From contig NC_086107.1 of assembly GCF_963921235.1 (NCBI RefSeq), positions 101,000,001 through 101,064,000 of the forward strand: 64,000 bases of DNA. Reading direction: 5' to 3'. Source of the DNA: Mobula hypostoma (taxonomy: Eukaryota). A program made the position numbers and the translations under genes. Positions 25,374-63,140 of this stretch are shown here, piece by piece (position 1 is the stretch's first letter; the number at the start of each line of letters is the position of its first letter). Below the pieces are notes generated by a model. That model ran no database searches. It saw nothing but the letters and a program-made list of their open reading frames with translations, and was not told the DNA's origin.

Positions 25374-25409
25374 AGTCAACGTTTCAGGCCGAGACCCTTC
25401 GTCAGGACT
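25374..25409 (-). ncRNA. Minimal type I hammerhead ribozyme (GUU site)
   Basis: Reverse complement: AGTC CTGACGA A GGGT CTCG GCCT GAAA CG TT GACT. Confidence 0.8.
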
Positions 25410-26360
25410 AACTGAAAGAAGAGCTAGTAAGAGATTTGAGAGGGGGAGGGGGAGATCCGAAATGATAGGAGAAGACAGGAGGGGGAGGGATGGAGCCAAG
25501 AGCTGGACAGGTGATTGGCAAAAGGGATATGAGAGGATCATGGGACAGGAGGCCTAGGGAGAAGGAAAAGGGGGAGGGGGGGAAACCCAGAGGATGGGCA
25601 AGGGGTATAGTCAGAGGGACAGAGGGAGAAAAAGGAGAGTGAGAGAAAGAATGTGTGCATAAAAATGAGTAACAGCTGGGGTACAAGGGGGAGGTGGGGC
25701 CTAGCGGAAGTTAGAGAAGTCAATGTTCATGCCATCAGGTTGGAGGCTACCCAGACGGAATATAAGGTGTTGTTCCTCCAACCTGAGTGTGGCTTCATCT
25801 TTACAGTAAAGGAGGCCGTGGATAGACATGTCAGAATGGGAATGGGATGTGGAATTAAAATGTGTGGCCACTGGGAGATCCTGCTTTCTCTGGCGGCCAC
25901 ACATTTTAATTCCACATCCCATTCCTATTCTGACATGTCTATCCACGGCCTCCTTTACTGTAAAGATGAAGCCACACTCAGGTTGGAGGAACAACACCTT
26001 ATATTCCGTCTGGGTAGCCTCCAACCTGATGGCATGAACGTTGACTTCTCTAACTTCCGTTAATGCCCCACCTCCCCCTCGTACCCCATCCGTTATTTAC
26101 TTATATACACACATTCTTTCTCTCGCTCTCCTTTTTCTCCCTCTGTCCCTCTGACTATACCCCTTGCCCATCCTCTGGGCTTCCCCCCCCCCCCTTTTCC
26201 TTCTCCCTGGGCCTCCTGTCCCGTGATCCTCTCATATCCCTTTTGCCAATCACCTGTCCAGCTCTTGGCTCCATCCCTCCCCCTCCTGTCTTCTCCTATC
26301 ATTTTGGATCTCCCCCTCCCCCTCCCACTTTCAAATCTCTTACTAGATCTTCCTTCAGTT

Positions 26361-26396
26361 AGTCCTGACGAAGGGTCTCGGCCAGAAACGTCGACT
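26361..26396 (+). ncRNA. Minimal hammerhead with a mismatched stem II closing pair
   Basis: AGTC CTGACGA A GGGT CTCG GCCA GAAA CG TC GACT. Confidence 0.7.
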
Positions 26397-29300
26397 GTAC
26401 CTCTTCCTACAGATGCTGCCTGACCTGCTGTGTTCACCAGCAACTTCGATGTGTGTCAAGTGAATTTAAGGACAGGGTGGAAGCTGGAGGCAAAGTTGAT
26501 GAAATTGATGAACTCAGCATGGGTGCATGAAACAGCACCAATGCAGTCATTAATGGGGAGCATGACCAGGGAAGGCTTGGAACATGGACTGCTCTGTGTA
26601 GCCAATGGAGAGGCAGGCATAGCTGGGGCCCATGTGAGTGTCCATAGCTAACTCTTGAGCTTGAAGAAAGTGGAGGAGCCGAAGGAGAAATTGTTGAGGT
26701 TGAAGACCAATTCTGACAGACGGAGGAGGGTGGTGGTGGTGGAGGAGAACTGGTTGGATCTTTTGCCGAGAAAGAAGCAGAGAGCTTTAAGGCCTTCTTG
26801 ATAGGGGTTAGGAGTGTATATGGACTGTACATCTGTGATGAAGATGAGGCGGTCAGGGCTAGAGAATTGAAAGTTACTGAGAAGGGCATGAGAAGTGTCT
26901 TGGATGTGGGTGGGAAGGTACTGAATGAAGGGAGATAGAATTGAGTCGAGGAATACAGACCAAGTTCAGTGGGGCAGGAGCCGGCCGAGACAATGAGCGT
27001 ACCTAGCCAGTCAGGTTTCTGGATCGTGGGTTGGAGGTAGGAACAAGCAGTGTGGGGTTAGGGAATTATGAGCTTGCTGGCAATGGATGGAAGATTTCCC
27101 AATTTGATGAGATTAGTGATGGTGTGTGAGCCATTGGCCTGATGGTCTGGACTGGAGTTACTCCTTCTCGAGGGGTAGGTAAGAGGAGGGTCTGAGAGTT
27201 GCCGCCTGGCCTCTGCCAGATAGAGGCCAGTCCGCCACACTACGACAGCACCCCCTTTGATGGTGAAGCTGGGATTGGTGCGGAAAGAGTGGAGGGCAAT
27301 GCATTCAGAGGGGGTAAGGTTCAAGGAGGAGAGGAAAGCGCTGAAGCTGAACCCGTTGATGTCTCGTCAGCAACCTGAGATGAAAAGATCCAGAGCAGGG
27401 AGAGACTCACAGCGGGATGTCTAGGAATAGGACGAGGGTTGGAGGTGAGGGAAGGGGTCATTGGTGCAGGGTGAGGAATTCTGGCAAAAGAGGTGGGCTC
27501 GGGGTCAGAGGCAACGGGCGAAGAGCTCGCCGTCATGATGTGCACTGAGGAGCGGGAGAAGGGGGAAAAGGTAAGGCCCTTGTTGAGGACAGAACATTCC
27601 GCCTCAGAGGGGAGGGTTGGAGGGAATGGTGAAGACATGGCAGTGATTAGGTCGGCAATACGAGGTGAAAAGATCCAGAACCAGAGCGGGGTGTTCGGCA
27701 ATTCGAAATGAATCCCTAATTAGCTTCTCCTCTGACGTCACTCCCATTCTTACTGCCTGTTATGTGGCTGACGTGTAGGGCGGCAGTGAAGGTCCTCTAT
27801 CTCTGGCAGTGTTCAGGGCTTCATTCATTGTGCCAGTAGCTTCCCCTGGGTTTTCACTGCCGTCAGTCACACAAGTCCCGGTGGAGACTCAGGAATACCG
27901 TCACACTCAGATGTAGAAAGAGTCTTCAGTGCTGTTTCCGTAAGAGTTTCGTTTTACCAGTCAGGGTTGTTAGCCCTGAGCTGAACCCCTAAACCTGGAG
28001 GACTGGTGGGTCAATCTTAGTCTGTCGTCTACCCTTTGACCTACCAAGGGCCAACGCATAAAGCCCTGACTCCAGCCACCATAGTTCTCTGGGTCATTGA
28101 GGCACACAAGGCTCCAAACCACTGCAAGGTTGTGGTCTGCTTGGAGGATCATAGAAACATAGAAAACCTACAGCACAATACAAAGCTGTACCGAACATGT
28201 CCTTACCTGAGAAATTACCTAGAGTTATCCATAGCCCTCTATTTTTCTGAGCTCCATGTACCTGTCCAGGAGCCTCTTAAAAGACCCCATCGTATCCGCC
28301 TCCACCACCGTCGCCGGCAACCCATTCCACGCACTCACCACTCTCTGCGTAAAAAACTTACCCCTGATAACTCCTCGGTACCTATTCACTCCCATTCACT
28401 GTATAAAAAGAAACACATCCGGCTGCTTTAATTGAATGTGAACCGAAATATCTGTAGTGTAAGCTGACTTCGGATCCATTCCTCTACAAGCCACACATTC
28501 TCAGTCTGTTTATTAATTTCAGTTGATATTTGCCTTCATCAGTCTGTGGAACTGACTTTCAGTTATTTATTGCAGAAGGAACAGAACTCTTAATGGTTCA
28601 AACTTGAAAATTTGATTTTGAGAGCAGATTGGGTTGAAGAAACTTAACACCAGAGTCTTAAGTTTGTTGACATGCTGAAGTTTAGTTTCTACAGTTCAGG
28701 ATTTGTCCAATTTGCTTTGGAGAAATTCCAATTTTCTGAGCTTTTGTTCAAATATTTTTCCCAGTGTTAACAACACCGGAACAGGTAGTTTCCTCGAACC
28801 TGCTCAGCTTTTCAGTGAGATTATAAACGATTCATGAACGAGCTCCGTTATGCACGCCTTCCCCTCATCCCCTTGATATCTTTGTTCAGCAAAAATCTAA
28901 CATCCTCCGATTCAAAGTGAACTCAGTATTGGTTGCCATTTGGTAGAGGAGATGTCCAGCCAGTATCCTGCTGCTCGTTGCTTAACATCAATTCTAGGCC
29001 CCTCTTCCAGATTGTCTCCCAACCAGCAGCAGTACGCTCTCTCTCGCTACCACATTATTTCCCCTTAACACCCTGAACAATAGGGATTACAGGAAATCCA
29101 ACCCTAGATGGTAAAACCTCTCCTAACAATTTAACTTCTTCTGTCCAAGATATTCCAGTAAATTTGTGCATTCTAGAATTGAACTTCAGTGTAGTCCAGT
29201 GAGGACTTTGTGTATCTATGGGATAACTTCTATTTCCTATCTTTGTCTATTAGACCATAAGGAGTAAAATTTGGCCATTCAACCCATCAAGTCTGCTCCA

Positions 29301-30676: not shown

Positions 30677-31199
30677 AAACACGAGGAAATTTGCAGATGC
30701 TGGAGTTCCAAGCAACACACATAAAAGTTGCTGGTGAACGCAGCAGGCCAGGCAGCATCTCTAGGAAGAGGTACAGTCGACGTTTCAGGCTGAGACCCTT
30801 CGTCAGGACTAACTGAAAGAAGAGCTAATAAGAGGTTTGAAAGTGGGAGGGGGAGGGGGAGATCCAAAATGATAGGAGAAGACAGGAGGGGGAGGGATGG
30901 AGCCAAGAGCTGGACAGGTGATTGGCAAAAGGGATACGAGAGGATCATGGGACAGGAGGCCCAGGGAGAAGGAAAAAGCGGGGGGAACCCAGAGGATGGG
31001 CAAGGGGTATAGTGAGAGGGACAGAGGGAGAAAAAGGAGAGAGAGAGAAAGAATGTGTGTATATAAATAAATAAATAAATAGATAGATAACGGATGGGGT
31101 ACGAGGGGGAGGTGGGGCATTAGCAGAAGTTTGAGAATTCAATGTTCATGCCATCAGGTTGGAGGCTACCCTGACGGAATATAAGGTGTTGTTATAAGG
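30677..31199 (-). mobile_element. Young 5'-truncated PLE with an intact hammerhead
   Basis: Same sequence family as insertion A. TSD taaaattggaa(c/t)g at 30663-30675 and 31200-31212. Confidence 0.88.
30775..30810 (-). ncRNA. Minimal type I hammerhead ribozyme (GUC site)
   Basis: Reverse complement: AGTC CTGACGA A GGGT CTCA GCCT GAAA CG TC GACT. Confidence 0.85.
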
Positions 31200-31374
31200 T
31201 AAAATTGGAATGTTGGCTATAGTCATAGTGGGCTGAAGGGCCTGTTCCTGTTCTATATTTTATGTCCATTACTTTTTCAAATTATTCAGTTTAACAGAGA
31301 GGGCCAATGTAGATTTGTAAGGATGGGTCTTGCCTCATATAACAGAGGCAAAGCTCATCCTTTATAAAATCTAC

Positions 31375-34906: not shown

Positions 34907-35352
34907 TAGATGGAGCCTGATGGGGTGGGAGGGAGATGAAGTAAGAAGCTAGAATGCGATAGGTGGACAAGCAACACACATCAAAGTTTCTGGTGAACGC
35001 AGCAGGCCAGGTAACATCTACCGGAAGAGGTACAGTCGACATTTCGGGACGAAGGGTCTCGGCCCGAAACGTCGACTGTATCTCTTCCTATAGATGCTGC
35101 CTGGCCTGCTGCGTTCACCAGCAACTTTGATGCAATAGGTGGAGCCTGGTGGGGTGGGAGGGAGATGAAGTAAGAAGCTAGAATGCGATAAGTGGAGCCT
35201 GGTGGGGTGGGAGGGAGATGAAGTAAGAAGCTAGAATGAGATAGGTGGAGCCTGGTGGGGTGAGAGGGAGGTGAAGTAAGAAGCTAGAATGCGATAGGTG
35301 GAGCCTGGTGGGGTGGGAGGAAGATGAAATAAGAAGCTAGAAGGCGATAGGT
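34907..35352. repeat. 53-bp tandem repeat (~5 units) within a PLE UTR
   Basis: Unit ataggtggagcctggtggggtgggagggagatgaagtaagaagctagaatgcg starts at 35135, 35188, 35241 and 35294. A first unit lies before the mini-element. Confidence 0.9.
34968..35129. mobile_element. Palindromic PLE mini-element
   Basis: Inverted terminal modules. TSD atgc(g/a)ataggtgga at 34954-34967 and 35130-35143. Confidence 0.82.
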
Positions 35353-36508
35353 TGAAAAGGTAAAGGGCTGTATGTATTTAAGGCAGAGATTGATAGGTAT
35401 CTGAGTAGCCAGGGTATCAAAGCTTATGGTGAGAAGGTGGGGGAGTGGGACTAATTGGGAGAATGGATCAGCTCATGATAAAATGGCGGAGCAGACTCAA
35501 TAGGCCGAATGGCTGACTTCTGCTCCTTTGTGTTATGGTCTAAGAACATGATAGGAGAGCAGAGTTGACCATGGGAGAAAGGAAAGGAGAATGGGCTCCA
35601 GGGATAGTGATAGGCAGGTGAGGGGATGAGAGATGTGAGAGGGGGAGCCAGAGTGGGGAATTGAAGAAGTGGGAAGGCGGAGGGGAAGAAATTACTGGAA
35701 GTTAGAGAAATCGATATTCATGCTATCAGGTTGGAGGCTACCGAGACAGAATATGAGGTGTTGCTCCTCCAACCTGAGAGTGGCCTCATCCTGGCAGTAG
35801 AGGAGGTCATTAACCGCCATGTCCGAATGGGAAAGGAGACTGGGATTGAAATAGTTGGCCACCGGAATATCGTGCTCTGTGTGAGTGGAGCGAAGGTGCT
35901 CCCCCCCACTCCAAATCAGAGAAAATCTGCAGATGCTGGAAATCCAACCAACACACACAAAACAGTGGAGGAACTCAGCAGGCCAGGCAGATGGGAGGTG
36001 AATGGACAGGTCTAACACTTCTTCCACTTGCAGGGTTAAGTGCCTGGAGGGAAATTAGTGGGGAGGGATGAATGGACAAGGAAATCTTGGAGGGAGCTAT
36101 AACTGCAGAAAGTGGAGATTGCGGGGGGGGGGGGTGCGGTAAAGATGTATCTGGTGGTAGGAACCCAGTGTTTTTCAGATTGGTTCAAGAACCTAATGGC
36201 AGTGGTGCTGTTCGACTTTGGGGTGTGAGCCTTCAGTCTGCTGTACCTCGTGCCCAATGGCAGCTCCAAGAAAAGGGCATAACTGGGATTGTGGGGGTCC
36301 CTAGCGATGGATGCTATCTTCCTGAGACATCCCCTCTTGAGATGTCGTTGATGGTGGGAAGAGCTATACCTGTGATGGAACTGGCTGAATTCCACTACTC
36401 TCTGCAGCCTAAACAACAGGAATTCTGCAGATGCTGGAAATTCAAGCAACATACATCAAAGTTGCTGGTGAACGCAGCAGGCCAAGCAGCATCTATAGGA
36501 AGAGGCAC

Positions 36509-36544
36509 AGTCGACGTTTCAGGCCGAGACCCTTCGTCAGGACT
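36509..36544 (-). ncRNA. Minimal type I hammerhead ribozyme (GUC site)
   Basis: Reverse complement: AGTC CTGACGA A GGGT CTCG GCCT GAAA CG TC GACT. Confidence 0.85.
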
Positions 36545-37462
36545 AACTGAAGGAAGAGTGAGTAAGGGATTTGAAAGCTGGAGGGGGAGGGGGAGATGCA
36601 AAATGATAGGAGAAGACAGGAGGGGGAGGGATAGAGCCGAGAGCTGGACAGGTGATAGGCAAAAGGGGATACGAGAGGATCATGGGACAGGAGGCCTAGG
36701 GAGAAAGACGGGGGGGGTGACCCAGAGGATGGGCAAGAGGTATATTCAGAGGGACAGAGGGAGAAAAAGAGTGAGAGAAAGAATGTGTGCATAAAAATGA
36801 GTAACAGCTGGGGTACGAGGGGGAGGTGGGGCCTAGCGGAAGTTAGAGAAGTCAATGTTCATGCCATCAGGTTGGAGGCTACCCAGACGGAATATAAGGT
36901 GTTGTTCCTCCAACCTGAGTGTGGCTTCATCTTTACAGTAGAGGAGGCCGTGGATAGACATGTCAGAATGGGAATGGGATGTGGAATTAAAATGTGTGGC
37001 CACTGGGTGATCCTGCTTTCTCTGGCGGACAGAGCGTAGATGTTCAGCAAAGCGGTCTCCCAGTCTGCGTCAGGTCTCACCAATATATAAAAGGCCACAT
37101 CGGGAGCACCGGATGCAGTATATCACCCCAGTCGACTCACAGGTGAAGTGATGCCTCACCTGGAAGGACTGTTTGGGGCCCTGAATGGTGGTAAGGGAGG
37201 AAGTGTAAGGGCATGTGTAGCACTTGTTCCGCTTACACGGATAAGTGCCAGGAGGGAGATCAGTGGGGAGGGATGGGGGGGACGAATGGACAAGGGAGTT
37301 GTGTAGGGAGCGATCCCTGCGGAATGCAGAGGGGGGGGGAGGGAAAGATGTGCTTAGTGGTGGGATCCCGTTGGAGGTGGCGGAAGTTACGGAGAATAAT
37401 ATGTTGGTCCCGGAGACTGGTGGGGTGGTAGGTGAGGTCCAGGGGAAGCCTCACCTACATGG

Positions 37463-38065
37463 ACCTACCACCCCACCAGCCTCCGGGTCCAACATATTAT
37501 TCTCCGTAACTTCCGCCACCTCCAACGGGATCCCACCACTAAGCACATCTTTCCCTCCCCCCCTCTCTCTGCATTCCGCAGGGATCGCTCCCTACACAAC
37601 TCCCTTGTCCATTCGTCCCCCCCATCCCTCCCCACTGATCTCCCTCCTGGCACTTATCCGTGTAAGCGGAACAAGTGCTACACATGCCCTTACACTTCCT
37701 CCCTTACCACCATTCAGGGCCCCAAACAGTCCTTCCAAGTGAGGCATCACTTCACCTGTGAGTCGACTGAGGTGATATACTGCGTCCGGTGCTCCCGATG
37801 TGGCCTTTTATATATTGGTGAGACCCGACACAGACTGGGAGACCGCTTTGCTGAACATCTACGCTCTGTCCGCCAGAGAAAGCAGGATCTCCCAGTGGCC
37901 ACACATTTTAATTCCACATCCCATTCCCATTCTGACATGTCTATCCACGGCCTCCTCTACTGTAAAGATGAAGCCACACTCAGGTTGGAGGAACAACACC
38001 TTATATTCCGTCTGGGTAGCCTCCAACCTGATGGCATGAACATTGACTTCTCTAACTTCCGCTAG
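37463..38065 (+). CDS. 5'-truncated PLE ORF: Cys linker plus GIY-YIG endonuclease (~200 codons open)
   Basis: CKRNKCYTC linker, then VIYCVRCSRCGLLYIGETRHRLGDRFAEH...HF...LRLEEQHLIFRLGSLQPDGMN. The mirror copy on the minus arm has a CGA>TGA stop. Confidence 0.88.
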   Translation, partial: TYHPTSLRVQHIILRNFRHLQRDPTTKHIFPSPPLSAFRRDRSLHNSLVHSSPPSLPTDLPPGTYPCKRNKCYTCPYTSSLTTIQGPKQSFQVRHHFTCESTEVIYCVRCSRCGLLYIGETRHRLGDRFAEHLRSVRQRKQDLPVATHFNSTSHSHSDMSIHGLLYCKDEATLRLEEQHLIFRLGSLQPDGMNIDFSNFR

Positions 38066-50922: not shown

Positions 50923-51524
50923 GTCAGGAATTCCCCTTCACAGCAGGTGTGTTTGACTGGGGATGAGGGAGGGGAGGTTATTTAGCGATCTTGTAAATGC
51001 AAGAGAGGCACCCCAACAAAACAGGTAGATGATTCTGAAAGAAGACCGGTGATGTACTGATACACACTTATTAATATGCAAATCTGCTGGCAAAGGATTG
51101 AGAGAGAGGGCAACACACAAAATGTCAGGCAGCGTCTGTGGAGAGAAATGAGCAGCTGAGGTTTCATGCCGAGACCCTTCGTGAAGACTGGAAAGGAAAG
51201 GGAGTCAGAAGCCAGAATAAAGATGGAGAGAGAAGAGCACAAGCAGGTGATTATTGAATCCAGGTGGATGAGGGAAAATAGGAAGATGGAAGGGAGATGA
51301 AGGGGAATGATGTGAGAAACTGGGGGGAGACAAAGGGCTGAAGAAGAAGAAGAAGGAGAGGACAATAGACTATGGAATAAAGGAAAGGAGGTGGTGAACC
51401 AGAGGAAGGATGCCTGTGAAGTTAGCGGGGGGTGGGGGGAAGAAGGAGTAAAGGTATGTCACCAATAAAGCTGCCAGTTCATGCTCCCCTCGCCCTTATC
51501 CTGGCTTCTGTCCCTTTCCTTTGC

Positions 51525-51560
51525 AATGCTGATGAAGGGTCTCGGCCCGAAACGTTGACT
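51525..51560 (+). ncRNA. Hammerhead with intact core but decayed stem I
   Basis: AATG CTGATGA A GGGT CTCG GCCC GAAA CG TT GACT. Confidence 0.6.
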
Positions 51561-54499
51561 GGCCATCCCCCTCCATAGACGCTGCCTGACTTGCTGAGTT
51601 CCTCCAGCATTTTGTGTGATGCTCCAGGGGTTTCCAGCATCTGCAGAATCTCTTGCGTCTCTGATTGCGAGGCTGTGAGTTGCAAATTTTCAGAAGTGCT
51701 GAATTCTTCAGTCTTTTGAGAATGTAGAAGTTTTGGATGTTAGTTACCTGCTAATCTAACTGTATATTAATAGTACTAGTACCCCTGTGATGGTGATTTA
51801 ATGGTGGATGTTTGCCAATCAACCTTGCTGGCCCAGAAAGGGATCAATCTAACTGCTCATTCCAGCAGCTCATTAATTGTTTAAGAATATCTATTTCTCA
51901 ACTTTACTTATCAGTCTCTTTTTTCCCCTTCTGATACTCCTGTCTTCCCCTCCCTATTCTGATTTTGACTATTCGTGGACACATTTTAAAAAATAAACTT
52001 GCAGCTGCAAAAAAGTCTGAAATAAAAGCAGAAATTGCAGCAACCACTCATCAGGCTGGGCAGCGTTCGTGGGAAGAAAAGCAGTTACCGTTTCAGGTCT
52101 GGGACCCTTTGTCGGAACTTGAGTTCACTGTTCCCTGTCCACCAGGTTGTCCCACTTCCCTTGTGCGTATATTTTTAGCATTACGACAGCACACAATGTC
52201 TGAAATAAAAGGGCGAGGACGTGTTCCAAGTTGTAGATGAAGTTCCAGGAAAGTTGGTGTTCCCATTGTGGACCATACTGTGCAACAGTCTGGGAAAGAT
52301 TAATTGTAGTCTGCATGAAAGTTTAGAGCTGAGGGTGCGATCTCGCAATGTGACAGTGGTGTGTTCAACTGGGTATTTGTTTCCTCTAGTGGAAGTTGAT
52401 TCTGTGTGAACTCGGGCAGTGTGAAGAGCCCGCGTGTGCTGACTACCTCACAGAGTGGTCCTAATGCACGCCGTGGCGCTGTGGCTGCGGTTGCACCTTG
52501 ACCTTCAGCAGCACCCAGAGCTGCCGATCCAGGATCCCCACAAGGATACCAATGTGGGAATGCAACAAGTGCAGGTGTTGGGAATGTGTATTTAGAGCCA
52601 GAAGTTGGGTGATGGGACGTTATGGAGGTTGAGTGGGAAAGTATTCACTTTGGAAAAGGGGGAATATATTTTGTAAGGTGATCAAAAAGGCGCAACAGTG
52701 CCTTTATTTCCTGCAGAGCATCAAGAAAGCTCACCTCTGTCCCAGGATACTGACAGACTTTTACTGCAGTACCATTGAGAGCATACTCACCAACTGCATC
52801 TCAGTGTGGTATGGCAATTGCCCCGTATCGGACCGCAAAGCACTCCAGCGTGTGGTGAAAACTGCCCAGCGGATTATCGGCACCCAATTGCCCACCATTG
52901 AAAACACTGCCTGGGCAGGGCGAAAAGCATTATCAAGGATGCATCTCACCCTAACCATGGACTTTTTACTCTCCTCCCATCCGGTAGGCGCTACAGGAGC
53001 CTCCGCTCCCGCACCAGCAGGCACAGGAAGAGCTTATTCCCTGAGGCTGTGACCCTGCTGAACCTCTCATCACAGTGCTAAGCAATATTGCACCCATATT
53101 GTACTGTCTCAGTACTTTTATATTTGTGTGCTATAGCACTTACTTTTTATTCGCAGATATTTTGTAAATAACACTATTCTTTGCATTTTTGGTTAGATGC
53201 TAACTGCATTTCATTGGCTTTGTATCTGTAGTCGGCACAATGATAATGAAGTTGAATCTAATCTAATCTAAATGGCAGCATCCAATTTTTGGGAAAGGAA
53301 GGAAATATGAATGTGAATCCTTCCCAGATTATGAACTTCTGAGAGAGGAACGAGCATCTGGGAGTTGGGTGGGATGGAATTGCCAGCTGCTGTAGAGCTG
53401 CAGGCATCCTCTGCTGCATGGGAGATGGTTTGCAGCTCCATTTTAACTTCTGAGCTATTGACAGGAATGGGAACCCTGCCATAACCCTGCGGGCAAACTC
53501 TACTGAGCGTTATTAGCATTTATTTTATTTTTGATTTTAAAAAAAGTTTATTGAAATACAATGTAGAATAGGTCCTCTTGGCCCTTTGAGCCACACCACC
53601 CAGAAATCCCCTGATTTAATCCTAGCCTAATCGTGGGACAATTTACATTGACCAATTAATCTACCAACCGGTAGCTCTTTGGACTGTGGGAGGAAACTGG
53701 GGCACCCGGAGGAAACCCACGCGGTTACGGGAAGAACGTGCAAACTCCTTACAGGCAGTGGTGGGAATTGAATCTGGGTCGCTGGCACTGTAAAGTGTCG
53801 TGCCAACCACTGCGCCACTGTGCCACATGTTAGTCTTTAATATGTAAAAATGGAGCCGCGTTGCAGTTACATCTGATCATAATGAAGCCATAGGTCCAGT
53901 CATGAGAGAATCTGCAGATGCGGGAAATCCAAAGCAACGCACACGGAATGCTGGTGGAACTCAGCAGGCCGGGCAGAATCTGTGGAAAAGAGCAAATGGT
54001 TGAGGTTTCATGCTGAGATCCTTCAACAGGAAGGTGTCCACAGGCCCAGTGTTGGCGTCTTTACATAAAAGTAGACTATCCTTGGAGGAATGCCATGATG
54101 ACTCACTGTATCTGCAAGGGGGACACTGTGAGGGGAATTCTTTGAAGAGAGACGGAGGAGCTCAGTATGGCATACCCCAGAGTTCCGGAAAATTGGAGAT
54201 AATCTCATCGAAGGATGTGGGTCTGGGAATTCAGTTGCAGGGTGCCTTTTCTTCAGTGCTAGGTGATTGAAGATCAACTTTCCCTGTGGTGAAATGGGCT
54301 AGTGACCGCCTGTGGGTCACTGTGTGCCACTGCAGGGATTTGAGTGATCACCTTGTATAACTGAGAGTTTCATCAGGTACACTTGGGATAATGTCTCTCC
54401 CTGTGAATCATTTGCCCAGGGAATGGGAATGATTGTTTGAACAGGTAACCAGTCATGCTGATTAACTCAATGCTGGACTTGGACCTGCGTAAGTTAACA

Positions 54500-56499: not shown

Positions 56500-56574
56500 T
56501 CTGAGAGAAGCTTCTCAGATAGAACCAACTGAATCTCACTGGGCAAGGATGTCTACCTACAGACAGTCAGCAAG
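56500..56574 (+). pseudogene. Dead copy of a type A exon (SERSFSDRTN*ISLGKDVYLQTVSK)
   Basis: Aligns without gaps to exon 60423. Has an in-frame TGA, a shifted acceptor and no donor at the expected position. Confidence 0.65.
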
Positions 56575-57030
56575 TGTACAACTTTATATTGGTTCTTGCA
56601 CTCTCAATGACACTGCCAACAGTCCCACACCACCAGGTTTGTGACCCACACCACCACGTTTAGGAACAGTTATTAACCTTCGACCGAGGCTACCCAAGCC
56701 TTCCCCGCCCGTGAGCACATCTACACAGAGCGCTGTCGCGAAGAAAGCAGCATCGATCATCAAGGACCCCCACCATCCAGACCATCTTCTTGCTGCTGCC
56801 ATCAGGAGCTTTAGGTCCCACACCACCAGGTTCAGGAACAGTTGTTACCTGTCAACCATCAAACTCCTGAACCAGTCTGGATAACTTCACACACCTCTAC
56901 TCTGAACTGATTCCACATCCATTGGACTTGCTTTCAAAGTCTCTACAACTCATGTTCTCAGTATTTACAACAACACACACAAAATGCTGGTGAACGCAGC
57001 AGGCCAGACAGCATCCATAGGAAGAAGCAC

Positions 57031-57066
57031 AGTCGACGTTTCAGGCTGAGACCCTTCGTCAGGACT
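57031..57066 (-). ncRNA. Minimal type I hammerhead ribozyme in a ~100 bp solo element
   Basis: Reverse complement: AGTC CTGACGA A GGGT CTCA GCCT GAAA CG TC GACT. Confidence 0.85.
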
Positions 57067-57229
57067 CTCAGTGTTTATTTATTTATTATTATTTTGTTTT
57101 TTAATTTTTGTGCAGTTCTTTTGCTTGTCAATCTTTGTATGTAGCTTTTCATTGGTTCTTATTGTATTTGTTTGTTCTGCTTGTTGTGAATGCCTGCAAG
57201 AAAATGAATCTCAGGGTAGTATATGGTGA

Positions 57230-57359
57230 GCAACACACACCAAAAGCTGGAGGAACTCAGCAGGCCAGGCAGCATCTATGGAGAAAAGTACAGTTGACAT
57301 TTCAGCCCGAAACCCAATCCTGCTAAATTTCCAGCATCTGCAGATTTTCTCTTGTTTGA
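57230..57359. mobile_element. Inverted PLE mini-element (module plus tail)
   Basis: TSD agtatatggtga at 57218-57229 and 57360-57371. Confidence 0.75.
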
Positions 57360-59344
57360 AGTATATGGTGACATGTACTTTGATCAGAAGTTTACCTGAA
57401 ACCTTGACCAGTCTATCTCTACCTCGGTACGTGGTGGTGGGCTCCCTCTGGAAATCGCGCGGCCACTTCGGTGGTGATGTCTGTTATCTGTCAAGTAGGG
57501 GACCGTGCACAATTCTGATTTGATGGAGACGGATGTGAGAGTACGGAGGAACATCTGGAAAACTTCTGAAATGCCCGTTTTGCTGCCGCTGCTACTGTGT
57601 GGTAACCGGAATCTCTGGAGCAGAAGGCCCCGAATCCTCGGCTTTGCTTGTTTCAGCGGCGGGGAGAGGTCGAAGGCGCTTGGCAGAGGATGGCGCTCGG
57701 GAGGCTGTATCGGAGAGGCTGGTCGGAAGCTCGAAGTTTTTGGATGGATGGACTCAGTGTCGGCTGTGGTCGCTGCTTCCAAGGCATCGGCAAGTTGACG
57801 GTGCCTGGAGGTTTATGGCAGGGAGTTTCTCCCTTTTGCTGCCTGGTATCGGGGACTTGGGAGTCGATCGACTCGGGGACTTTGAGACTTTATTTACCGT
57901 GCCCATGGTTTGTTCTTCATCAAATTATGGTATTGCTTTGCACTGCTGTAACTATATATTAGAATTATGTGGTTCTGTCAGTGTTAGTTTTTGGTTTGTC
58001 CTGTTTTCTGTGATATCACTCCGGAGAAACATTGTATCATTTCTTAGTGCATGTATGCATTTCTAAATGACAATAAAAGAGGACTGAGTGTTCTCATAAT
58101 CGAAAAAAAAATCTGCAGCCCCCGAATCCCTGCTCCACCAGTGGGATTTGATATGAAAGTTCCAAAGGAGACTAAACCAAGTAATGTCAAGTGAGAAGGT
58201 GCATGAAGTAGAGACAGTTGTACTGTCAGAGATGCTCTTGTGTAGTTGGGAGCAGGTTCAGTGGGGCTGAGCTCAATCAGCTCCTGCAGGGTCTCCTGTG
58301 AACAGTATGTAGTGTGAGAGCAGTGGAAGGAATGGGGATCTTGGTGGGCTCCTTTGCTTACCACTGGGACCCCTCTTCCCTCCACCATACCCATTCTTGT
58401 CCTCACCCATTGGGATTCTGTGCCCCTCCCTCTCCAGTAAGACCTTTGACCCTCTCTATTGGGACATGTACTCTATCCACACCTCTCCACTGGGATCTAC
58501 CACTGGCTTGTGATTGGTTGGTTTCCTTCTGCTGATCTGTAAAGGTAATTTTGATTGGTCAGCCTGACTACCACACAATGCTCTCAGGGTTTCCCTGACA
58601 CTGAGTCTGGCATTCTCATCAGCCAGAGGAGGGGTTTGTTGGAGTGGAGGGGTCCCATTGAGGGGGAGAGGGGGACTTGGTGGAGATCCTCTTTCCTGCT
58701 TCCCCTCCATCACTCCTGCTCTACTTGCTGTTCAGAGGACATGAGCCCCAGTGAGCCTGTTGGCCCACCCCTTCCTCCGTCTACACGGAATGGCGCTAAC
58801 AGCACGATAGTCTGCAGATCAGACACCTTCTCACCTGAACACAGACCAGGGCGTTCCTCAGTTTAGACATCTGGGAATTCTCACAACAAATGCCACTCAG
58901 CAAAGGTGCAACCTCGGAACAGGACGTTCCTTTAGACGGAGGTGAGGAGGAACTTCTTTAGCCAGAGAGTGGTGAATCTGTAGAATTCTTTGCCACGGGC
59001 AGCTGTGGAGGCCAAGACACTGGGTATATTTAAAGTAAAGGTTGATAGGTTCTTGATTAGGGTGTCAAAGGTTATGTGGAGAAGGCAGGAGAATGGGGTT
59101 GAGAGGGAAATTAAATCAGCCATGATAGAATGGCAGAGTGAATACAATGGGCTGAATGGCCTAAGTCTGCTCTTATATCTTATGGTAAGGAGTTGTGGCA
59201 TTCTGGAAGGAGTCTAGTGCCACGTTCCCAGATTAAATGGGGATGGATTATTGTCAGTGTCGTCCATTTTTATAGTTAACCAATCAACAGTAATTAATGG
59301 AGTGGGTGATACCAAGTTTGTCAAAACATTTCCACATCCTCCCA

Positions 59345-59586
59345 ATCAACACACACAAAAACTGCTGGTGAACGCAGCAGGCCAGACAGCATCTATAGGA
59401 AGAGGTACAGTCTATATTTTGGGCCGAGACCCTTCATCAGGACTAACGCCTTGTTAGTGCTGACGAAGGGTCTAGGCCCAAAATGTCGACTGTACCTCTT
59501 CCTAGAGATGCTGCCTGGTCTGCTGCGTTCACCAGCAGTTTTTGTGTGTTTTGATTGAAATTCCAGTATCTGCAGATTTCCTTGTG
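59345..59586. mobile_element. Palindromic PLE mini-element (two back-to-back terminal modules)
   Basis: ~100 bp arms around a 5 nt spacer gcctt. TSD tccacatcctccca at 59331-59344 and 59587-59600. Confidence 0.88.
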
Positions 59587-59689
59587 TCCACATCCTCCCA
59601 CCCTGTTTCAATGACAGTGTCTGCTACTAATTTCTGGTAGGTGGTATCTCATTAATCAGAGTACCTCAAGGAGCCAGTGTTCTACTGTT

Positions 59690-60140
59690 CTCACCCCACT
59701 ACACAGACAGTGTCCAGTTGTTACGCCCCCTACATTGCAGTGTCCAAGCCATCCCATCCCTCACATTGCCACTTTCTAACCATCTCAGCTCCACATCGCC
59801 AGTGCCCAAACCATCTCACCCCCTACATTTCCAGTGTCCAAATATTCCCAGCCCACACCGCCACTACCCAACCCATTTCATCCCCCACACTTCCAGTGTC
59901 CAACTATCCCCAGCCCACACTGCCACTGTCCAACCCATCTCATCACTCACACTGCCAATGTTTACCTGTTCCCATCCCCCTCACTGCCAGTGCCCAACCC
60001 ATCTCACCCCACACATTGCCAGTGCCCAGTTGTTCCCACCCCTCAACGCCAGTGTCCAATCTGTTCCATGCTCCATAGTGCCAGTGTCCCCAGCCCATCC
60101 CAACCCCTCCCTCACAGTTCCAATATCCAACTGCCAGTCT
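59690..60140. repeat. Degenerate C-rich minisatellite (~33-35 bp unit)
   Basis: Recurrent cacactgccagtgtccaacccatctcacccc-like units. Confidence 0.8.
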
Positions 60141-60422
60141 CAACTGTTCCCTCTAAACAGTGGTCCCTGGTTTAATTTCTCTGTGGTCATTGTCAACTTG
60201 AAAGTGACCGCTGTTGCAGGTTCTCTCTGGAAATCTGCAAACTTTCCCCACAACTCCTGGTGTTCTCTGCTGTTCCGTTGCACTGGTCCTGCCACCTCAG
60301 GACTGTACTGAGGGAGCAGGAGGACCCACTGTGATGGTGTGTTACCACCAATGGCCACTGAGAAGTGAAAACGCGAGGTCCAGCCTCAGACTGTGAAAAG
60401 ACTTTGTTAACTTCCTGCACAG

Positions 60423-60506
60423 ACTGAGAGAGGACTCACAACCAGGACCATGCCCACCTCACCAGACAAAGATGTCTATCCACAGACAGCGAACAAGCAG
60501 GAAAAG
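60423..60506 (+). CDS. Predicted internal exon TERGLTTRTMPTSPDKDVYPQTANKQEK
   Basis: Acceptor aacttcctgcacag, donor gtgagg, 84 nt. Ungapped paralog of 63653. Confidence 0.82.
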
Positions 60507-60659
60507 GTGAGGCCGATGCTGCATCCATGGGTGACTCTTGTCCAGCTGCACAGACTAGGGATATCCCAGACAATCTGCCCTAGGATACTCTGAGAAGGTG
60601 GTAATTAGCTTCCTTTAACAATGGAGTTCATCTTCAAAAGGCAATGCCTCAAACAGGCG

Positions 60660-63140
60660 GCATAAGGTATAGGAGCAGAATTAGGCCATTGACTCATCGA
60701 GTCTTCTCCGCCATTTCATCATGCCTGATCCAGTTTTCCTCTCAACCCCAGTCTCCTGCCTTCTCCCGGTATCCCTTCGTGCCCTGACCAATCAAAGACT
60801 CGGCCTCCACAGCTGCCTGTGGAGAAGAGTTCTACAGATTCAGCACTCTCTAGCTAAAGAAATACCTTCTCATCTCCATTCTAAAAGGACTCCCCTCTAT
60901 TCTGAGGCTGTGTCCTCTGGTTTTAGACTCTGCCACCACAGGAAACATCCTCTGCACATCCACTCTATCAAGGTCTTTCACCATTTGATAGTTTTCAATG
61001 AGGTCACCCCTCATTCTTCTGAATCCTAGTGAATACAGGCCCAGAGCCATCAAACACTCTTCGTATGACAAGTCATTCAATCCTGGAATCATTTTCGTGA
61101 ACCTCCTTTGAACCCTCTTCAGTTTCAGCACATCCTTTCTAAGATAAGGAAGCCAAAACTGCTCACAATACTCCAAGTGAGTCCCCACCAGTGCTTTATA
61201 AAGTTTCAACATTACATCCTTGCTTTTATATTCTAGTCCTCTTGAAATGAATGCTAATATTGCATTTGCCTTCCTCACCACAGATTCAACCTACAAATGA
61301 GTCTTTAGGGAGTCCTGCACAAGGACTCCCAAGTCCCTTTGCACCTCAGATTTTTTGTATTTTCTCTCCATTTAGAAAATAGTCAACCCCTTCATTTCTT
61401 CTACCAAAGTGTGTGACCGTACACTGCCCGACACTGTGTTCCATTTGCCATTTCTTTGCCCATATTCTTAATCTGACCAAGTCCTTCTGTAGCCTCTTTA
61501 CTTCTTCAAAACTACCTGCCTCTCCACCTATCTTCATATTGTCTGCAAACTGCATCAAAGCCATCAATTCCGTCATCCAAATCATTGACACATAATGTAA
61601 AAAGAATTGGTCCCAACACAGACCCCTGTGGAACACCAACGGCCAGCCAGAAAAGGCTCCCTTTATTCCCACTGTTTTCCCCCTGCCAAACAGCACTGCT
61701 TTGTCCATGCTAGAATCTTTCCTGTAATACCATGGACTCTTTGCTTGTTAAACAGCCTCATGTGTTCACCTTGTCAAAGACCTTCTGAAAACCAAGTACA
61801 TAACATCAACTGATTCTCCTTTGTCCATCCTGCTTGTTGTTTCTTCAAAGAATTCCAACAGATTTGTCAGGCAAGATTTTCCCTTGAAGAAACCATGCTG
61901 ACTGCTGGCTATTTTATCACATGGCTCCAAGTACCCTGAGACCTCATCCTTAAATCGACTCCAACATCTTGCCAACCACTGAGGTCAGACTAACTAGCCT
62001 ATAGTTTCCTTTCTCCTGTATTTCTCCCTTCAGTTCATCCTCCATTTCCTTGTCCCCCATTACTACTTCTCCAGCATCGTTTTCCAATGGTCCGATATCA
62101 CTCTCGTCTCTTTTTTACACTTTATGTATCTGAAGAAACTTTTGGTATCCTCTTTAATATTATTGGTTAGTTTACTTTCGTGTTCCATCTTTACCTTAAG
62201 TACTTTTTAGTTGCCTTCTGTTGGTTTTTAAAAGCTTCTCAATTCTTTAACTTCCCACTAAATTTTGCTCTATTATATGCCCCTCAGGCCTGATGAAGGG
62301 TCCCAGCCTGAAACGTCGACTGTTTACTCTTCTCCATAGATGCTGCCAGGCCTGCTGAGTTCCCCCAGAATTTTGTGTCTCTTGCTTTGGCTTTTATGTT
62401 GGCTTTGACTTCTTTTGTTAGCCAGGGTTGTGTCATCTTTCCTTTAGAATACTTCTTCCTCTTTGGGATGTATATATCCTGTGCCTTCTGAATTGCTTTC
62501 AGAAATTCCAGCCATTGCTGCTCTGCCATCATCCCTGCCAGTGTTCTTTTCCAGTCAATTGACTGGATTGGGGAGCATGCCTTATGAGAATAGGTTGAGT
62601 GAACACGGCCTTTTCTCCTTGGAGTGACGGAGGATGAGAGGTGCCCTGATAGACAGGTACAAGGTGATGAGAGGCATCGATCGTGTGGATAGTCAGAGGC
62701 TTTTTCCCAGGGCTGAAATGGCTAGCACGAGAGGGCACAGTTTTAAGGTGCTTGGAAGTAGGTACAGAGGAGATGTCAGGGGTAGGCTTTTTACGCAGAG
62801 AGTGGTGAGTGCGTGGAATGGGCTGCCGGCGCTGGTGGTGGAGGAGACGGATACGATAGGGTCTTTTAAGAGACTCCTGGATAGGTACATGGAGCTCAGA
62901 AAAATAGAGGGCTATGGGTAACCCTAAGTAATTTCTAAGGTAAGGACATATTTGGCACAGCTTTGTGGGCCCAAGGGCCTGTATTGTGCTGCAGGTTTTC
63001 TATGTTTCTATGTTCTAATTCGGGCCAACTCCTCTCTCATGTCTGCGTAATTCCCTTTACTCCACTGTAATACTGATACATCTGACTTTGGCTTCTCCTT
63101 CTCAAATTCCAGGGTGAATTTGATCATATTATGATCAGTT
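60660..63140 (-). mobile_element. Decayed CR1 LINE with a nested PLE module (62284-62380) and a plus-strand CR1 tail (~62570-63017)
   Basis: QHGFFKGKSCLTNLLEFFEE, FADNMKIG and HLEYCEQFW peptides. Confidence 0.88.
62286..62321 (+). ncRNA. Hammerhead with intact core and one stem I mismatch
   Basis: AGGC CTGATGA A GGGT CCCA GCCT GAAA CG TC GACT. Confidence 0.65.

What the first reader, a model, noticed from the sequence alone, without database searches (positions are those of the whole stretch)
25374..62321. Dense family of minimal hammerhead ribozymes in the terminal repeat of a vertebrate Penelope-like element
Seen: a 36-nt motif AGUC-CUGAYGA-A-GGGU-(4 nt loop)-GCCY-GAAA-CG-UC-GACU. It is intact at 25374, 30775, 36509 and 57031, near-intact at 26361, 51525 and 62286, and decayed or partial at about 16733, 22683, 24322, 31440, 34801, 35048, 47856, 48679, 51153, 52082, 53998, 59409, 59456 and 63393. 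It has the hammerhead core (CUGANGA, GAAA, UH), stem I AGUC/GACU, a short stem II, and stem III reduced to the palindrome ACGU. Established: PLEs carry minimal type I hammerheads, and such motifs cleave as dimers through the palindromic stem III loop. Inference: at about one copy per 3 kb, this genome may hold a very large ribozyme population across at least two PLE subfamilies of different age.
Basis: partly seen in the sequence, partly recalled or inferred. Interest (0 to 1): 0.85.

Follow-up and report, generated by a model that had tools for sequence, protein, structure and literature searches.

The report
Penelope retroelement hammerhead ribozymes, massively amplified
The repeated 36-base motif is the known minimal hammerhead ribozyme carried at the end of Penelope-like jumping genes; this vertebrate genome holds tens of thousands of intact copies and several hundred thousand relics, so the catch is correct but the kind is already described.

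Summary
The motif is real and far above chance: 9 sites match the 36-nt pattern with at most 3 mismatches, against 0 expected. A profile of motif plus downstream sequence finds 28 copies in the 64 kb, including all 14 "decayed" sites. It sits about 300 nt downstream of the stop of an RT plus C-terminal GIY-YIG ORF. It is followed by about 65 to 110 conserved nt that end the insertion. This is the pseudo-LTR / 3' module of a Neptune/Nematis-type Penelope-like element (PLE). It has the published min-HHR hallmarks: CUGANGA, an extra base after A9, GAAA, and palindromic ACGU in place of helix III.

Genome-wide (3.48 Gb, vertebrate) there are 68,506 strict matches, 32,886 of them one identical 36-mer. 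I estimate 0.6 to 0.9 million module relics. A young family (97-100% identical, open frames up to 1,054 aa) coexists with older CpG-decayed ones.

There is no stem covariation, no Rfam hit, and no RNA data to test cleavage. Copies starting at the cleavage site are rare. A modest excess start at the ribozyme's first bases, often as inverted snap-back twins. Verdict: a new member of a known kind, notable for scale and youth.

The parts
36509..36544 (-). Intact minimal hammerhead: AGUC-CUGACGA-A-GGGU-CUCG-GCCU-GAAA-CG-UC|GACU. It is identical to the most abundant 36-mer of the genome.
   Evidence: 0 mismatches; this exact 36-mer occurs 32,886 times in the genome.
36399..36551 (-). Full 3' module of a young PLE copy: hammerhead plus about 110 nt of conserved sequence ending ...GAAUUCCUGUUGUUU.
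   Evidence: nhmmer E=3.1e-44. The same end is seen in locus L012.
36411..37451 (-). Left arm of inverted twin 2. It is a 5'-truncated young PLE copy: the last roughly 205 codons of the ORF, the 3' UTR, the hammerhead, and a complete 3' end.
   Evidence: blastn 97.0% over 1,049 nt to the L012 unit; tblastn 97%.
37463..38339 (+). Right arm of inverted twin 2. It has the same 5' truncation point as the left arm but stops 13 nt before the hammerhead. The whole twin is flanked by a 12-bp direct repeat TCTCTGCAGCCT at 36399-36410 and 38340-38351.
   Evidence: blastn 97.7%; sequence.
37436..38065 (+). C-terminal part of the PLE ORF: CX5CXXC linker, GIY-YIG core with two Cys, ending ...FSNFR*.
   Evidence: Translation. 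Pfam GIY-YIG E=2.9e-4, 21.5 bits, just under the 22.6 cutoff.
25276..25899 (-). Left arm of inverted twin 1. It carries the hammerhead at 25374-25409 (GUU triplet) and has a complete 3' end.
   Evidence: 92.6% over 631 nt.
25895..26467 (+). Right arm of inverted twin 1. It carries the hammerhead at 26361-26396 (G10.1 opposite A). Its outer end stops about 27 nt short of the canonical end.
   Evidence: 90.8% over 574 nt.
24223..27650 (-). Older, diverged 5'-truncated PLE, split by the insertion of twin 1. The RT part is about 50% identical to the young ORF. Its CpG-decayed hammerhead is at 24322-24357.
   Evidence: tblastn pieces (ORF residues 312-720 at 27642-26459, residues 717-1036 at 25270-24587) and blastn about 70%. 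nhmmer module 24364-24223, E=1e-35.
30677..31193 (-). 5'-truncated PLE copy (87% to the young unit) with an intact hammerhead at 30775-30810.
56967..57066 (-). 100-nt solo copy that starts exactly at the first base of the hammerhead (57031-57066, intact). It ends at the inner 3'-end site. It is flanked by a 10-bp target duplication AAA(C/T)ACTGAG at 57067-57076 and 56957-56966.
   Evidence: sequence read directly.
62279..62428 (+). Module of an older family. Its hammerhead at 62286-62321 has an intact core and one mismatch in stem I.
51518..51672 (+). Module of an older family. Its hammerhead at 51525-51560 has an intact core and two stem I mismatches.
59341..59594 (.). Head-to-head inverted pair of short modules: 59447-59341 (-) and 59449-59594 (+). 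Both have CpG-decayed hammerheads, at 59409-59444 and 59456-59491.
34968..35132 (.). Head-to-head inverted pair joined inside the hammerhead: 35050-34968 (-) and 35048-35132 (+).
22578..22713 (-). Young-family module that starts inside the CUGA box (partial hammerhead).
   Evidence: 95.3%.
16624..16767 (-). Decayed module of an older family.
   Evidence: E=4e-30.
53894..54031 (-). Decayed module 340 nt downstream of a CR1-like LINE ORF. It is an independent insertion, not part of the LINE: the other LINE copies in the window have no module after them.

Best explanation
The motif is the minimal type I hammerhead (min-HHR) in the pseudo-LTR / 3'-terminal module of Penelope-like retroelements. 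Their EN linker has the Neptune/Nematis pattern. Almost all copies in the window are dead 5'-truncated insertions, so they keep only the 3' end of the element, which is where the ribozyme lies.

Shown: in a complete copy the order is partial upstream copy (pLTR) with hammerhead, about 60 nt, a roughly 1,040-codon ORF (RT, then CX5CXXC linker, then GIY-YIG), about 300 nt of CU-rich 3' UTR, the hammerhead, then about 65 or about 105 nt to the insertion end.

Inferred from published PLE work: the reverse transcriptase starts inside the RNA at one of two sites downstream of the ribozyme. That would explain the two classes of 3' ends about 40 nt apart (the PLE 'tail'). It copies through an uncleaved hammerhead.

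Inferred: a single motif cannot form helix III. An active core needs two copies paired through ACGU, or help from the element's protein. Cleavage after GUC would then cut the ORF-bearing RNA free of upstream pLTR or read-through sequence. The RNAs that become new copies mostly escape cleavage.

Inferred: inverted head-to-head twins arise when the cDNA snaps back on itself.
For: Motif and statistics:
- establish the motif and its excess over chance.

Published hallmarks of PLE min-HHRs (PMC4209133, main text read), all visible:
- CUGANGA and GAAA boxes.
- One extra base between A9 and 10.1.
- Palindromic 15.2-16.2 (C-G).
- A short helix I.
- Location in the PLTR.

Element identity:
- The ORF end ...FSNFR* lies about 300 nt upstream on the same strand.
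- In full copy L012 the module is at 3014-3161 and 6529-6671, around a 1,043-codon frame.
- In that frame, RVT_1 covers residues 533-697 and GIY-YIG covers residues 945-1019.
- L012 has a 611-bp direct repeat that is 98.5% identical.
- A CX5CXXC linker is present; this is the feature of the Neptune and Nematis clades per PMC8557442.
- Inverted 5'-truncated partners are present.
- Of 65 module hits, 23 end at model positions 96-115 and 28 end at 140-160.
- These traits match the published PLE signature (PMC8557442 passages; PMC11167929 main text).

Conservation:
- An older PLE whose RT is only about 50% identical in protein, and whose 3' UTR does not align, still has the module at E=1e-35.

Abundance:
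- 68,506 strict matches.
- 32,886 copies of one 36-mer.
- 171,977 copies of a 19-nt tail block.
- Reversed-pattern controls gave 0.

Uncleaved templates:
- 99 of the first 100 listed young tails keep the ribozyme's 3' half.
- Only 432 of 107,231 have two purines directly before GACUG, against 216 for a control placed 2 nt downstream.

Snap-back:
- In 3 of the 4 twins in the window, one arm reaches the canonical end and the other stops short.
- A recurrent palindromic junction is seen.
Against: - No cleavage evidence of any kind. No run on record as RNA was available, and contigs cannot show RNA ends.
- No covariation. On 27 hammerheads (24 distinct), the covariation score was 0.114 against a shuffled mean of 0.159, and 499 of 500 shuffles were at least as high. 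The stems are simply conserved, and variation is mostly CpG decay.
- No Rfam hammerhead family matches, either at gathering threshold over the window or at E up to 10 around 36509. This is expected for a motif without helix III.
- The monomer's minimum-free-energy fold pairs core bases GACG with CGUC, an inactive shape.
- The most abundant variant has G10.1 opposite U11.1, not the G-C pair stressed in PMC4209133. By my hand count, 79 of the first 100 listed strict matches have U and 21 have C.
- Both Pfam domain hits on the ORF are below Pfam's own cutoffs, and no solved structure matches by sequence.
- Published work finds such ribozymes weak in vitro (PMC4209133) and dispensable for insertion in vitro (PMC11167929).
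Confidence: 0.88

Rival explanations
1. The hammerhead-like sequence is kept for a reason other than self-cleavage. It could be part of the RNA site that the element's protein binds before internal priming. It could be part of an internal, LINE-like promoter that must lie downstream of a start site at the ribozyme's first base. The ribozyme would then be vestigial or nearly inactive in vivo.
For: - There is conservation without covariation.
- The dominant, most successful variant carries a G-U wobble at 10.1-11.1.
- Copies beginning at the cleavage site are rare: 432 of 107,231 against 216 in the control.
- There is an excess of copies that begin at the motif's first bases.
- Published: HHR mutants do not change insertion in vitro, and no RNA-seq reads end at the cut site in Anolis (PMC11167929).
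- Published: PLE clades without a hammerhead proliferate well (PMC8557442).
- Published: D. virilis Penelope has an internal TATA-less promoter in the same region (PMC2377424 passages).
Against: - All invariant core bases of a hammerhead are kept in young copies, which a protein-binding or promoter role alone does not predict.
- PLEs of plants, fungi and protists carry fully active hammerheads at the same place (PMC4209133).
- The Anolis motif does cleave when the element's protein is added, with C3/G8 rescue (PMC11167929).
- The two roles are not exclusive.
Confidence: 0.25
2. The short copies of roughly 100 to 150 nt are not truncated PLEs. They are a separate non-autonomous element (SINE-like, or a monomer relic of a non-LTR retrozyme) that borrows the PLE machinery through the shared 3' module.
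For: - Most copies are module-only.
- Some have a defined 5' end at the ribozyme's first base and target duplications, for example 56967-57066.
- A 2026 preprint argues that vertebrate non-LTR retrozymes derive from PLE pLTRs (10.64898/2026.07.22.740005, abstract and Results part 1 read).
Against: - Young short copies are sequence-identical to the 3' end of the autonomous element.
- Truncation points form a continuum: about 80 of the first 100 listed hammerhead-bearing copies run on into the PLE 3' UTR.
- No tandem head-to-tail arrays of the module were seen in the window or in the 200-kb sample. The one same-strand neighbour pair, 57315 and 57073, joins two different families.
Confidence: 0.08
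3. It is a chance resemblance or an assembly artefact.
For: None found.
Against: - 0 matches in 100 shuffles, against 9 observed.
- Reversed-pattern controls gave 0, against 68,506 matches.
- Copies lie on many contigs with different flanks and target duplications.
Confidence: 0.01

Closest known systems
Minimal hammerheads (min-HHR) in the PLTRs of metazoan Penelope-like elements (Cervera and De la Pena 2014, PMC4209133). Examples include fish Xena, Poseidon and Neptune, coelacanth (about 4,000 motifs) and Xenopus (about 9,000).
   Same: - The core boxes are the same.
- There is an extra base between A9 and 10.1.
- There is no helix III, only palindromic 15.2-16.2.
- Helix I is short, 4-5 bp.
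- The motif is placed in the terminal repeat.
- Most motifs are solitary relics of truncated elements.
- Some occur as close pairs on opposite strands.
   Different: - Helix II is 4 bp with a tetraloop, not the 7-8 bp described for the Schistosoma families.
- The commonest variant has G-U, not G-C, at 10.1-11.1.
- The population is far larger and far more uniform: 68,506 strict matches, 48% of them one 36-mer. That paper stresses extreme variability within genomes, with D. virilis as the exception.
Poseidon element PAc of Anolis carolinensis (Frangieh et al. 2024, PMC11167929)
   Same: - The hammerhead sits at the pLTR-ORF junction.
- Insertion 3' ends fall at two nearby sites roughly 65 to 110 nt downstream of the cut site, as expected from internal initiation of reverse transcription and the 'tail' signature.
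- Genomic copies carry the uncleaved ribozyme.
   Different: - In PAc the ORF starts inside the ribozyme. Here the first in-frame ATG is about 57 nt after it.
- The clade differs: here a CX5CXXC linker of Neptune/Nematis type.
- Nothing was tested biochemically here.
Non-LTR retrozymes of animals, for example up to 120,000 copies in axolotl (Cervera and De la Pena 2020, PMC7229834, passages)
   Same: Both have type I hammerheads with weak or palindromic helix III, very high copy numbers in a vertebrate genome, and a likely dependence on PLE machinery.
   Different: - Retrozymes are short tandem repeats with canonical loop-loop hammerheads that give circular RNAs.
- Here the motif is the minimal form, dispersed, and attached to an autonomous ORF-bearing element.
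- No tandem arrays were seen.
Rfam Hammerhead_1 (RF00163) and other Rfam hammerhead families (accession recalled, not from a call)
   Same: The catalytic core consensus is the same.
   Different: No match at gathering threshold or at E up to 10. The models expect a helix III.

Membership tests
PLE minimal hammerhead (min-HHR, Cervera and De la Pena 2014) | Conserved boxes CUGANGA and GAAA, with a UH cleavage site. | tested here: met
   5 sites in the window match the strict pattern and 9 match with at most 3 mismatches. The triplet is GUC, or GUU at 25374.
PLE minimal hammerhead (min-HHR, Cervera and De la Pena 2014) | [quoted passage not shown] | tested here: met
   An A follows CUGAYGA in all 27 aligned copies (column 12 is invariant).
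PLE minimal hammerhead (min-HHR, Cervera and De la Pena 2014) | G10.1-C11.1 base pair. | tested here: inconclusive
   The pair is G-C in 14 and G-U in 7 of 24 distinct copies. The dominant genomic 36-mer has G-U. By my hand count, 79 of the first 100 listed strict matches have U. The position is paired but is mostly a wobble.
PLE minimal hammerhead (min-HHR, Cervera and De la Pena 2014) | No helix III or loop 3; palindromic 15.2-16.2 so that two copies can pair. | tested here: met
   GAAA-CG-UC reads as ACGU.
PLE minimal hammerhead (min-HHR, Cervera and De la Pena 2014) | Stems I and II supported by compensatory changes within a genome. | tested here: not met
   83.9% of cells are paired, but the covariation score of 0.114 is below the shuffled mean of 0.159, with 499 of 500 shuffles at least as high. 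The sample is small: 27 copies from 264 kb.
PLE minimal hammerhead (min-HHR, Cervera and De la Pena 2014) | Location in the terminal repeats of a PLE. | tested here: met
   In L012 the module lies on both sides of the RT/GIY-YIG ORF within a 611-bp direct repeat.
PLE minimal hammerhead (min-HHR, Cervera and De la Pena 2014) | Self-cleavage, weak and as a dimer. | not testable with these tools
   No raw RNA reads were available.
Penelope-like element, EN+ with C-terminal GIY-YIG | A single ORF with RT followed by a C-terminal GIY-YIG endonuclease that has Cys inside the GIY-YIG core. | tested here: met
   RVT_1 covers residues 533-697 (21.5 bits) and GIY-YIG covers residues 945-1019 (19.7 bits). 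Both are below Pfam cutoffs but in the right order. The sequence ...VIYCVRCSRCGLLYIGETRHRLGDRFAEH... appears.
Penelope-like element, EN+ with C-terminal GIY-YIG | The structural signature of PLE insertions: frequent 5' truncation, partial tandems (pLTR), adjacent inverted 5'-truncated copies, and an optional 30-40 bp tail. | tested here: met
   - Truncation, tandem and inverted-copy structure.
- Two 3'-end clusters about 40 nt apart.
Neptune / Nematis clades of PLEs | A CX2-5CxxC motif in the linker before the GIY-YIG domain. | tested here: met
   CKRNKCYTC appears. The definition comes from PMC8557442. No phylogeny was made, so the clade is not assigned beyond this one feature.
Rfam hammerhead families | Score at or above the family gathering threshold. 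| tested here: not met
   0 matches at gathering over the window. There was no hammerhead hit at E up to 10 in 36380-36620.

The most novel reading that the evidence does not exclude
The ribozyme marks the exact 5' end of a PLE RNA species. A class of young copies, roughly 8 to 10% of those that carry the hammerhead, begins at the first or second base of stem I (AGUC or GUC), several-fold more than at neighbouring positions. Many of these copies are snap-back inverted twins. If this 5' end is a transcription start, then self-cleavage would remove the cap together with the whole ribozyme. (The sequence TTAGTCC / CCAGTCC fits the initiator consensus, a consensus I recall and did not test.) That would leave a 5'-OH RNA about 60 nt ahead of the ORF. 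It would make the ribozyme a switch between capped and uncapped, circularisable PLE RNA. This genome, with about 33,000 identical motifs and open ORFs, would be the best natural system to test that.
Probability: 0.25. Interest if true: 0.6.

Novelty: new member of a known kind. Interest (0 to 1): 0.33.

Why it matters
What the hammerhead does for Penelope-like elements is still open. Published motifs are weak in vitro, are dispensable for insertion in vitro, and are absent from some very successful clades.

This vertebrate genome offers a very large, uniform and apparently recent population. It has 32,886 identical motifs, ORF tails 97-100% identical, and open frames of full length. Older decayed families lie beside it.

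Genomic footprints can therefore be counted in the thousands rather than inferred from a few copies. These footprints are where copies start, where they end, and how the twins are joined. Here they already suggest that templates are reverse-transcribed with the ribozyme uncut. As a discovery of a new kind of thing it does not matter: the class has been in print since 2014.

Tried and rejected
- **Rfam.** A gathering-threshold scan of the whole window gave 0 hits. A permissive scan of 36380-36620 gave only a weak UnaL2 LINE 3'-element match in the tail (15.9 bits against a threshold of 55, E=2.3). I treat that as chance.
- **RNAalifold.** On 17 full modules it gave no consensus structure (-2.2 kcal/mol), so I claim no conserved fold for the tail.
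- **Covariation.** The count on 27 hammerheads showed none.
- **Folding.** The 162-nt module has z=-1.6, which is not significant, and no hammerhead shape. The hammerhead dimer with an intermolecular ACGU helix is a pseudoknot in two-strand notation, so ViennaRNA could not score it.
- **PDB.** A sequence search with the full ORF gave 0 hits at E up to 1.
- **Sequencing runs.** No RNA holder is listed. 24 runs were listed, all kept as contigs and none on record as RNA.
- **Laying contigs.** Contigs of 4 runs laid on the pLTR-ORF junction of L012 showed no place where molecules begin or end. Contigs cannot show RNA ends. This is no evidence on expression or cleavage.
- **Earlier findings.** There was nothing for this genome or this sequence.
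- **Splice acceptor idea.** I considered that the pyrimidine tract plus CAG in front of the ribozyme is a 3' splice site, as in D. virilis Penelope. The copy starts peak at A and G of AGUC, not after an AG, so the starts do not support it. Splicing itself is untested.
- **LINE idea.** I considered that the module belongs to the neighbouring CR1-like LINE at 54373-55800. The other LINE copies in the window have no module behind them.
- **Cleaved templates.** I looked for a footprint of ribozyme-cleaved templates, meaning copies that begin at GACUG. I found 432, against 216 in a control placed 2 nt away, out of 107,231 tails. Part of the excess is an inverted-junction class (AGGACU). This is no convincing signal.
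- **nhmmer start positions.** Start positions of old copies inside the hammerhead are unreliable because CpG decay ends the local alignments, so I did not use them.


Full report
**The observation**

A pattern search with up to 3 mismatches found 9 sites, against 0 in 100 dinucleotide-preserving shuffles. A looser core pattern found 5 exact sites, against 0 expected. The four perfect copies (25374, 30775, 36509, 57031) are on the minus strand.

Aligning 536 nt around the nine sites showed that the conserved unit is longer than the motif. All copies share the motif and about 110 nt downstream of it. Four copies also share about 300 nt upstream.

A profile HMM of motif plus 115 nt found 28 copies with E<1e-5 in the window. 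Decay is mostly CpG loss, for example GAAACGUC becoming GAAAUGUC, GAAACAUC or AAAACGUC.

**What it is**

- Upstream of the four longer copies the alignment begins with ...AACTTCCGCTAG. This is the end of an ORF (...FSNFR*) whose last 209 residues carry a CX5CXXC linker and a GIY-YIG core.
- tblastn of this piece against the window found it 200 to 300 nt upstream of the hammerheads at 24322, 25374, 26361, 30775, 31440 and 36509, always on the ribozyme's strand.
- The window's own assembly is 3.48 Gb in 200 contigs. The same protein piece found many copies 97-100% identical, inside open frames of up to 1,054 residues (150 scored of 228,878 first-look candidates).
- One fetched example, L012, shows the whole element.
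  - A 611-bp partial upstream copy is 98.5% identical to the 3' end. This is the pseudo-LTR.
  - The hammerhead module lies at 3014-3161 and again at 6529-6671.
  - Between them is a 1,043-codon frame.
- Pfam places RVT_1 at residues 533-697 and GIY-YIG at 945-1019. Both are weak and below Pfam's cutoffs, but in the PLE order.
- The insertion ends at ...GAATTCCTGTTGTTT. One unit is about 3.5 kb.
- Another example, L013, has a 1,180-bp inverted arm that is 99.7% identical.
- The CX2-5CxxC linker is the stated mark of the Neptune and Nematis clades (PMC8557442, passages). I made no tree.
- The genome is a vertebrate's. The vertebrate telomerase RNA family matches full length at 186.9 bits, against a cutoff of 70, with 0 of 14 control genomes matching.

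**The window in detail**

- An older PLE lies at 24223-27650 (-). Its RT is about 50% identical in protein to the young ORF.
- That older PLE is split by a young inverted twin, 25276-25899 (-) and 25895-26467 (+).
- A second young twin, 36411-37451 (-) and 37463-38339 (+), is flanked by a 12-bp direct repeat.
- A 519-bp truncated copy lies at 30677-31193 (-).
- Many short module-only copies are present, two of them as head-to-head pairs (59447/59449 and 35050/35048).
- In three of the four twins, one arm reaches the canonical 3' end and the other stops short of it. This fits a cDNA that snaps back and copies itself better than two independent priming events.
- The 100-nt copy at 56967-57066 begins exactly at the first base of the ribozyme and has a 10-bp target duplication.

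**Fit to the published kind**

I read the main text of Cervera and De la Pena 2014 (PMC4209133). It describes minimal hammerheads in the flanking repeats of metazoan PLEs, including fish Neptune, Poseidon and Xena. It reports about 4,000 in coelacanth and about 9,000 in Xenopus. The features it lists are:

- an unpaired base between 9 and 10.1;
- a G10.1-C11.1 pair;
- palindromic 15.2-16.2;
- a short helix I;
- low activity, and only as dimers;
- solitary motifs from truncated elements;
- pairs on opposite strands.

All of these are seen here except two. The commonest variant pairs G10.1 with U. Compensatory changes were not found.

Frangieh et al. 2024 (PMC11167929, main text) show for an Anolis PLE that:

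- reverse transcription starts internally at two adjacent sites downstream of the hammerhead, which explains the PLE 'tail';
- the ribozyme needs the element's protein to cleave;
- ribozyme mutants insert normally in vitro.

Here 23 of 65 module hits end at model positions 96-115 and 28 of 65 at 140-160. That gives two 3'-end classes about 40 nt apart.

**Scale**

Exact pattern counts over the genome, each with a reversed-pattern control of 0 unless noted:

| Pattern | Count |
|---|---|
| Strict 32-nt motif | 68,506 |
| Single commonest 36-mer | 32,886 |
| 19-nt block of the tail | 171,977 |
| Head-to-head pairs with 0-30 nt between the two CUGAYGA boxes | 2,806 |

In 200 kb taken at 20 arbitrary places, nhmmer found 37 modules, in 14 of the 20 stretches. 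Only 15 of all 65 hits in window plus sample carry the exact 19-nt block. Scaling the block count by that ratio puts the total at roughly 0.6 to 0.9 million relics. This is a rough extrapolation.

For comparison, the largest vertebrate figures I saw in print are up to 120,000 retrozyme copies (PMC7229834, passages) and 14,255 'active' ones (2026 preprint). Both are for the far larger axolotl genome.

**Is the ribozyme under constraint, and does it cut?**

- On 27 complete hammerheads from the window and the sample (24 distinct), 83.9% of stem cells pair, against 7-48% when partners are slid.
- The covariation score is below the shuffled mean, with 499 of 500 shuffles at least as high. Covariation is therefore absent in this sample.
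- Constraint is suggested only by conservation. The older PLE at 24223-27650 has no alignable 3' UTR and about 70% nucleotide identity in the ORF, yet keeps the module.
- No RNA evidence could be had (see Tried and rejected).

Genomic footprints say that templates were mostly uncut:

- 99 of the first 100 listed young tails still have the ribozyme's 3' half in front of GACUG.
- Only 432 of 107,231 have two purines there, against 216 for a matched control 2 nt further on.

**An excess of copies starting at the ribozyme's first bases**

- Of the first 100 listed young copies with the hammerhead's 5' half, about 80 continue into the 3' UTR, 4 belong to other families, and 16 are truncated or joined within the 17 nt before CUGA.
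- The next 17 nt upstream show about 4 truncated copies per 100.
- I selected truncated copies by requiring two purines 10-11 nt upstream (6,472 in the genome). I then tallied by hand how much of CAGTTAGTC is kept in the first 100.

| Bases of CAGTTAGTC kept | 0 | 1 | 2 | 3 | 4 | 5 | 6 | 7 | 8 | 9 |
|---|---|---|---|---|---|---|---|---|---|---|
| Copies | 5 | 8 | 8 | 36 | 15 | 5 | 4 | 6 | 9 | 4 |

- Eleven of the 36 are one recurrent palindromic junction, as expected if a cDNA ending at the complement of GUCCUG folds back on its own GTC. About five more are variants of that junction.
- That class always passes the purine filter and is therefore over-represented. After allowing for this, the excess at GTC and AGTC is several-fold, not tenfold.
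- Two readings remain open. One is an RNA whose 5' end is the ribozyme's first base, with a transcription start as one option. The other is a sequence-specific template switch of the reverse transcriptase.
- D. virilis Penelope has an internal promoter and start site in the same general region, 46 nt before an intron (PMC2377424, passages). PMC4209133 says that intron ends at the 5' end of helix I.

**Verdict**

The kind has been in print since 2014. What is particular here is the size, uniformity and apparent youth of the population. The cautions are the absence of covariation and of any cleavage evidence.

Noticed in passing
Genome-wide, young family; in the window 56967-57066(-): There is an excess of copies whose 5' end is the first or second base of the hammerhead (AGTC or GTC). 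16 of 96 young copies are truncated in the 17 nt before CUGA, against about 4 of 100 in the next 17 nt upstream. About half of the truncated copies fall at those two positions, by hand tallies of the first 100 listed places.
   Followed up: partly
Window 25276-26467, 36411-38339, 59341-59594, 34968-35132; loci L013, L016, L017, L019, L020, L024, L026, L033: Head-to-head inverted twins are very common, with 2,806 close pairs genome-wide. The two arms share nearly the same 5' truncation point. In three of the four window twins only one arm reaches the canonical 3' end, which fits snap-back synthesis.
   Followed up: partly
Window and L014-L033 (65 module hits): There are two classes of insertion 3' ends about 40 nt apart, at model positions 96-115 (23 hits) and 140-160 (28 hits). 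These match the optional 30-40 bp 'tail' described for PLEs.
   Followed up: partly
Window 54373-55800(-), 7747-8501(+), 11320-12238(-), 52633-53052(+): These are fragments of CR1-like LINEs. Where the ORF end is kept, RVT_1 is followed by the C-terminal motif that Pfam calls ALKBH8_N. One frame is interrupted by a single in-frame stop at 54985-54987.
   Followed up: no
Window 35130-35352 and 59726-60067: Two tandem arrays begin right where a module copy ends. One has a 53-nt unit with 4.2 copies. The other is a C-rich array with a 32/62-nt unit. Their relation to the PLE insertions is unknown.
   Followed up: no
Window 36414-36467(-): The last 54 nt of the module give a weak, sub-threshold match to the Rfam UnaL2 LINE 3' element (15.9 bits, E=2.3). 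This is probably chance, but the region is where reverse transcription should start.
   Followed up: no
All decayed copies, e.g. 24322, 59409, 59456, 34802: The hammerhead holds four CpGs, plus a fifth (C11.1-G12) in variants with C at 11.1, so it decays fast in this methylated genome. G12 to A and C15.2/G16.2 changes are the usual first hits. The young master has U at 11.1, which removes the CpG that spans 11.1 and G12.
   Followed up: partly
Runs listed: Near-identical 31-mers of the young element occur in runs labelled with 13 different coded organisms from 11 studies, with shares from 0.16 to 0.83. I did not examine whether these are close relatives or something else.
   Followed up: no
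L034 (G000:C9:30128925-30129411): A full-length match to vertebrate telomerase RNA at 186.9 bits. It was used only to confirm that the host is a vertebrate.
   Followed up: no
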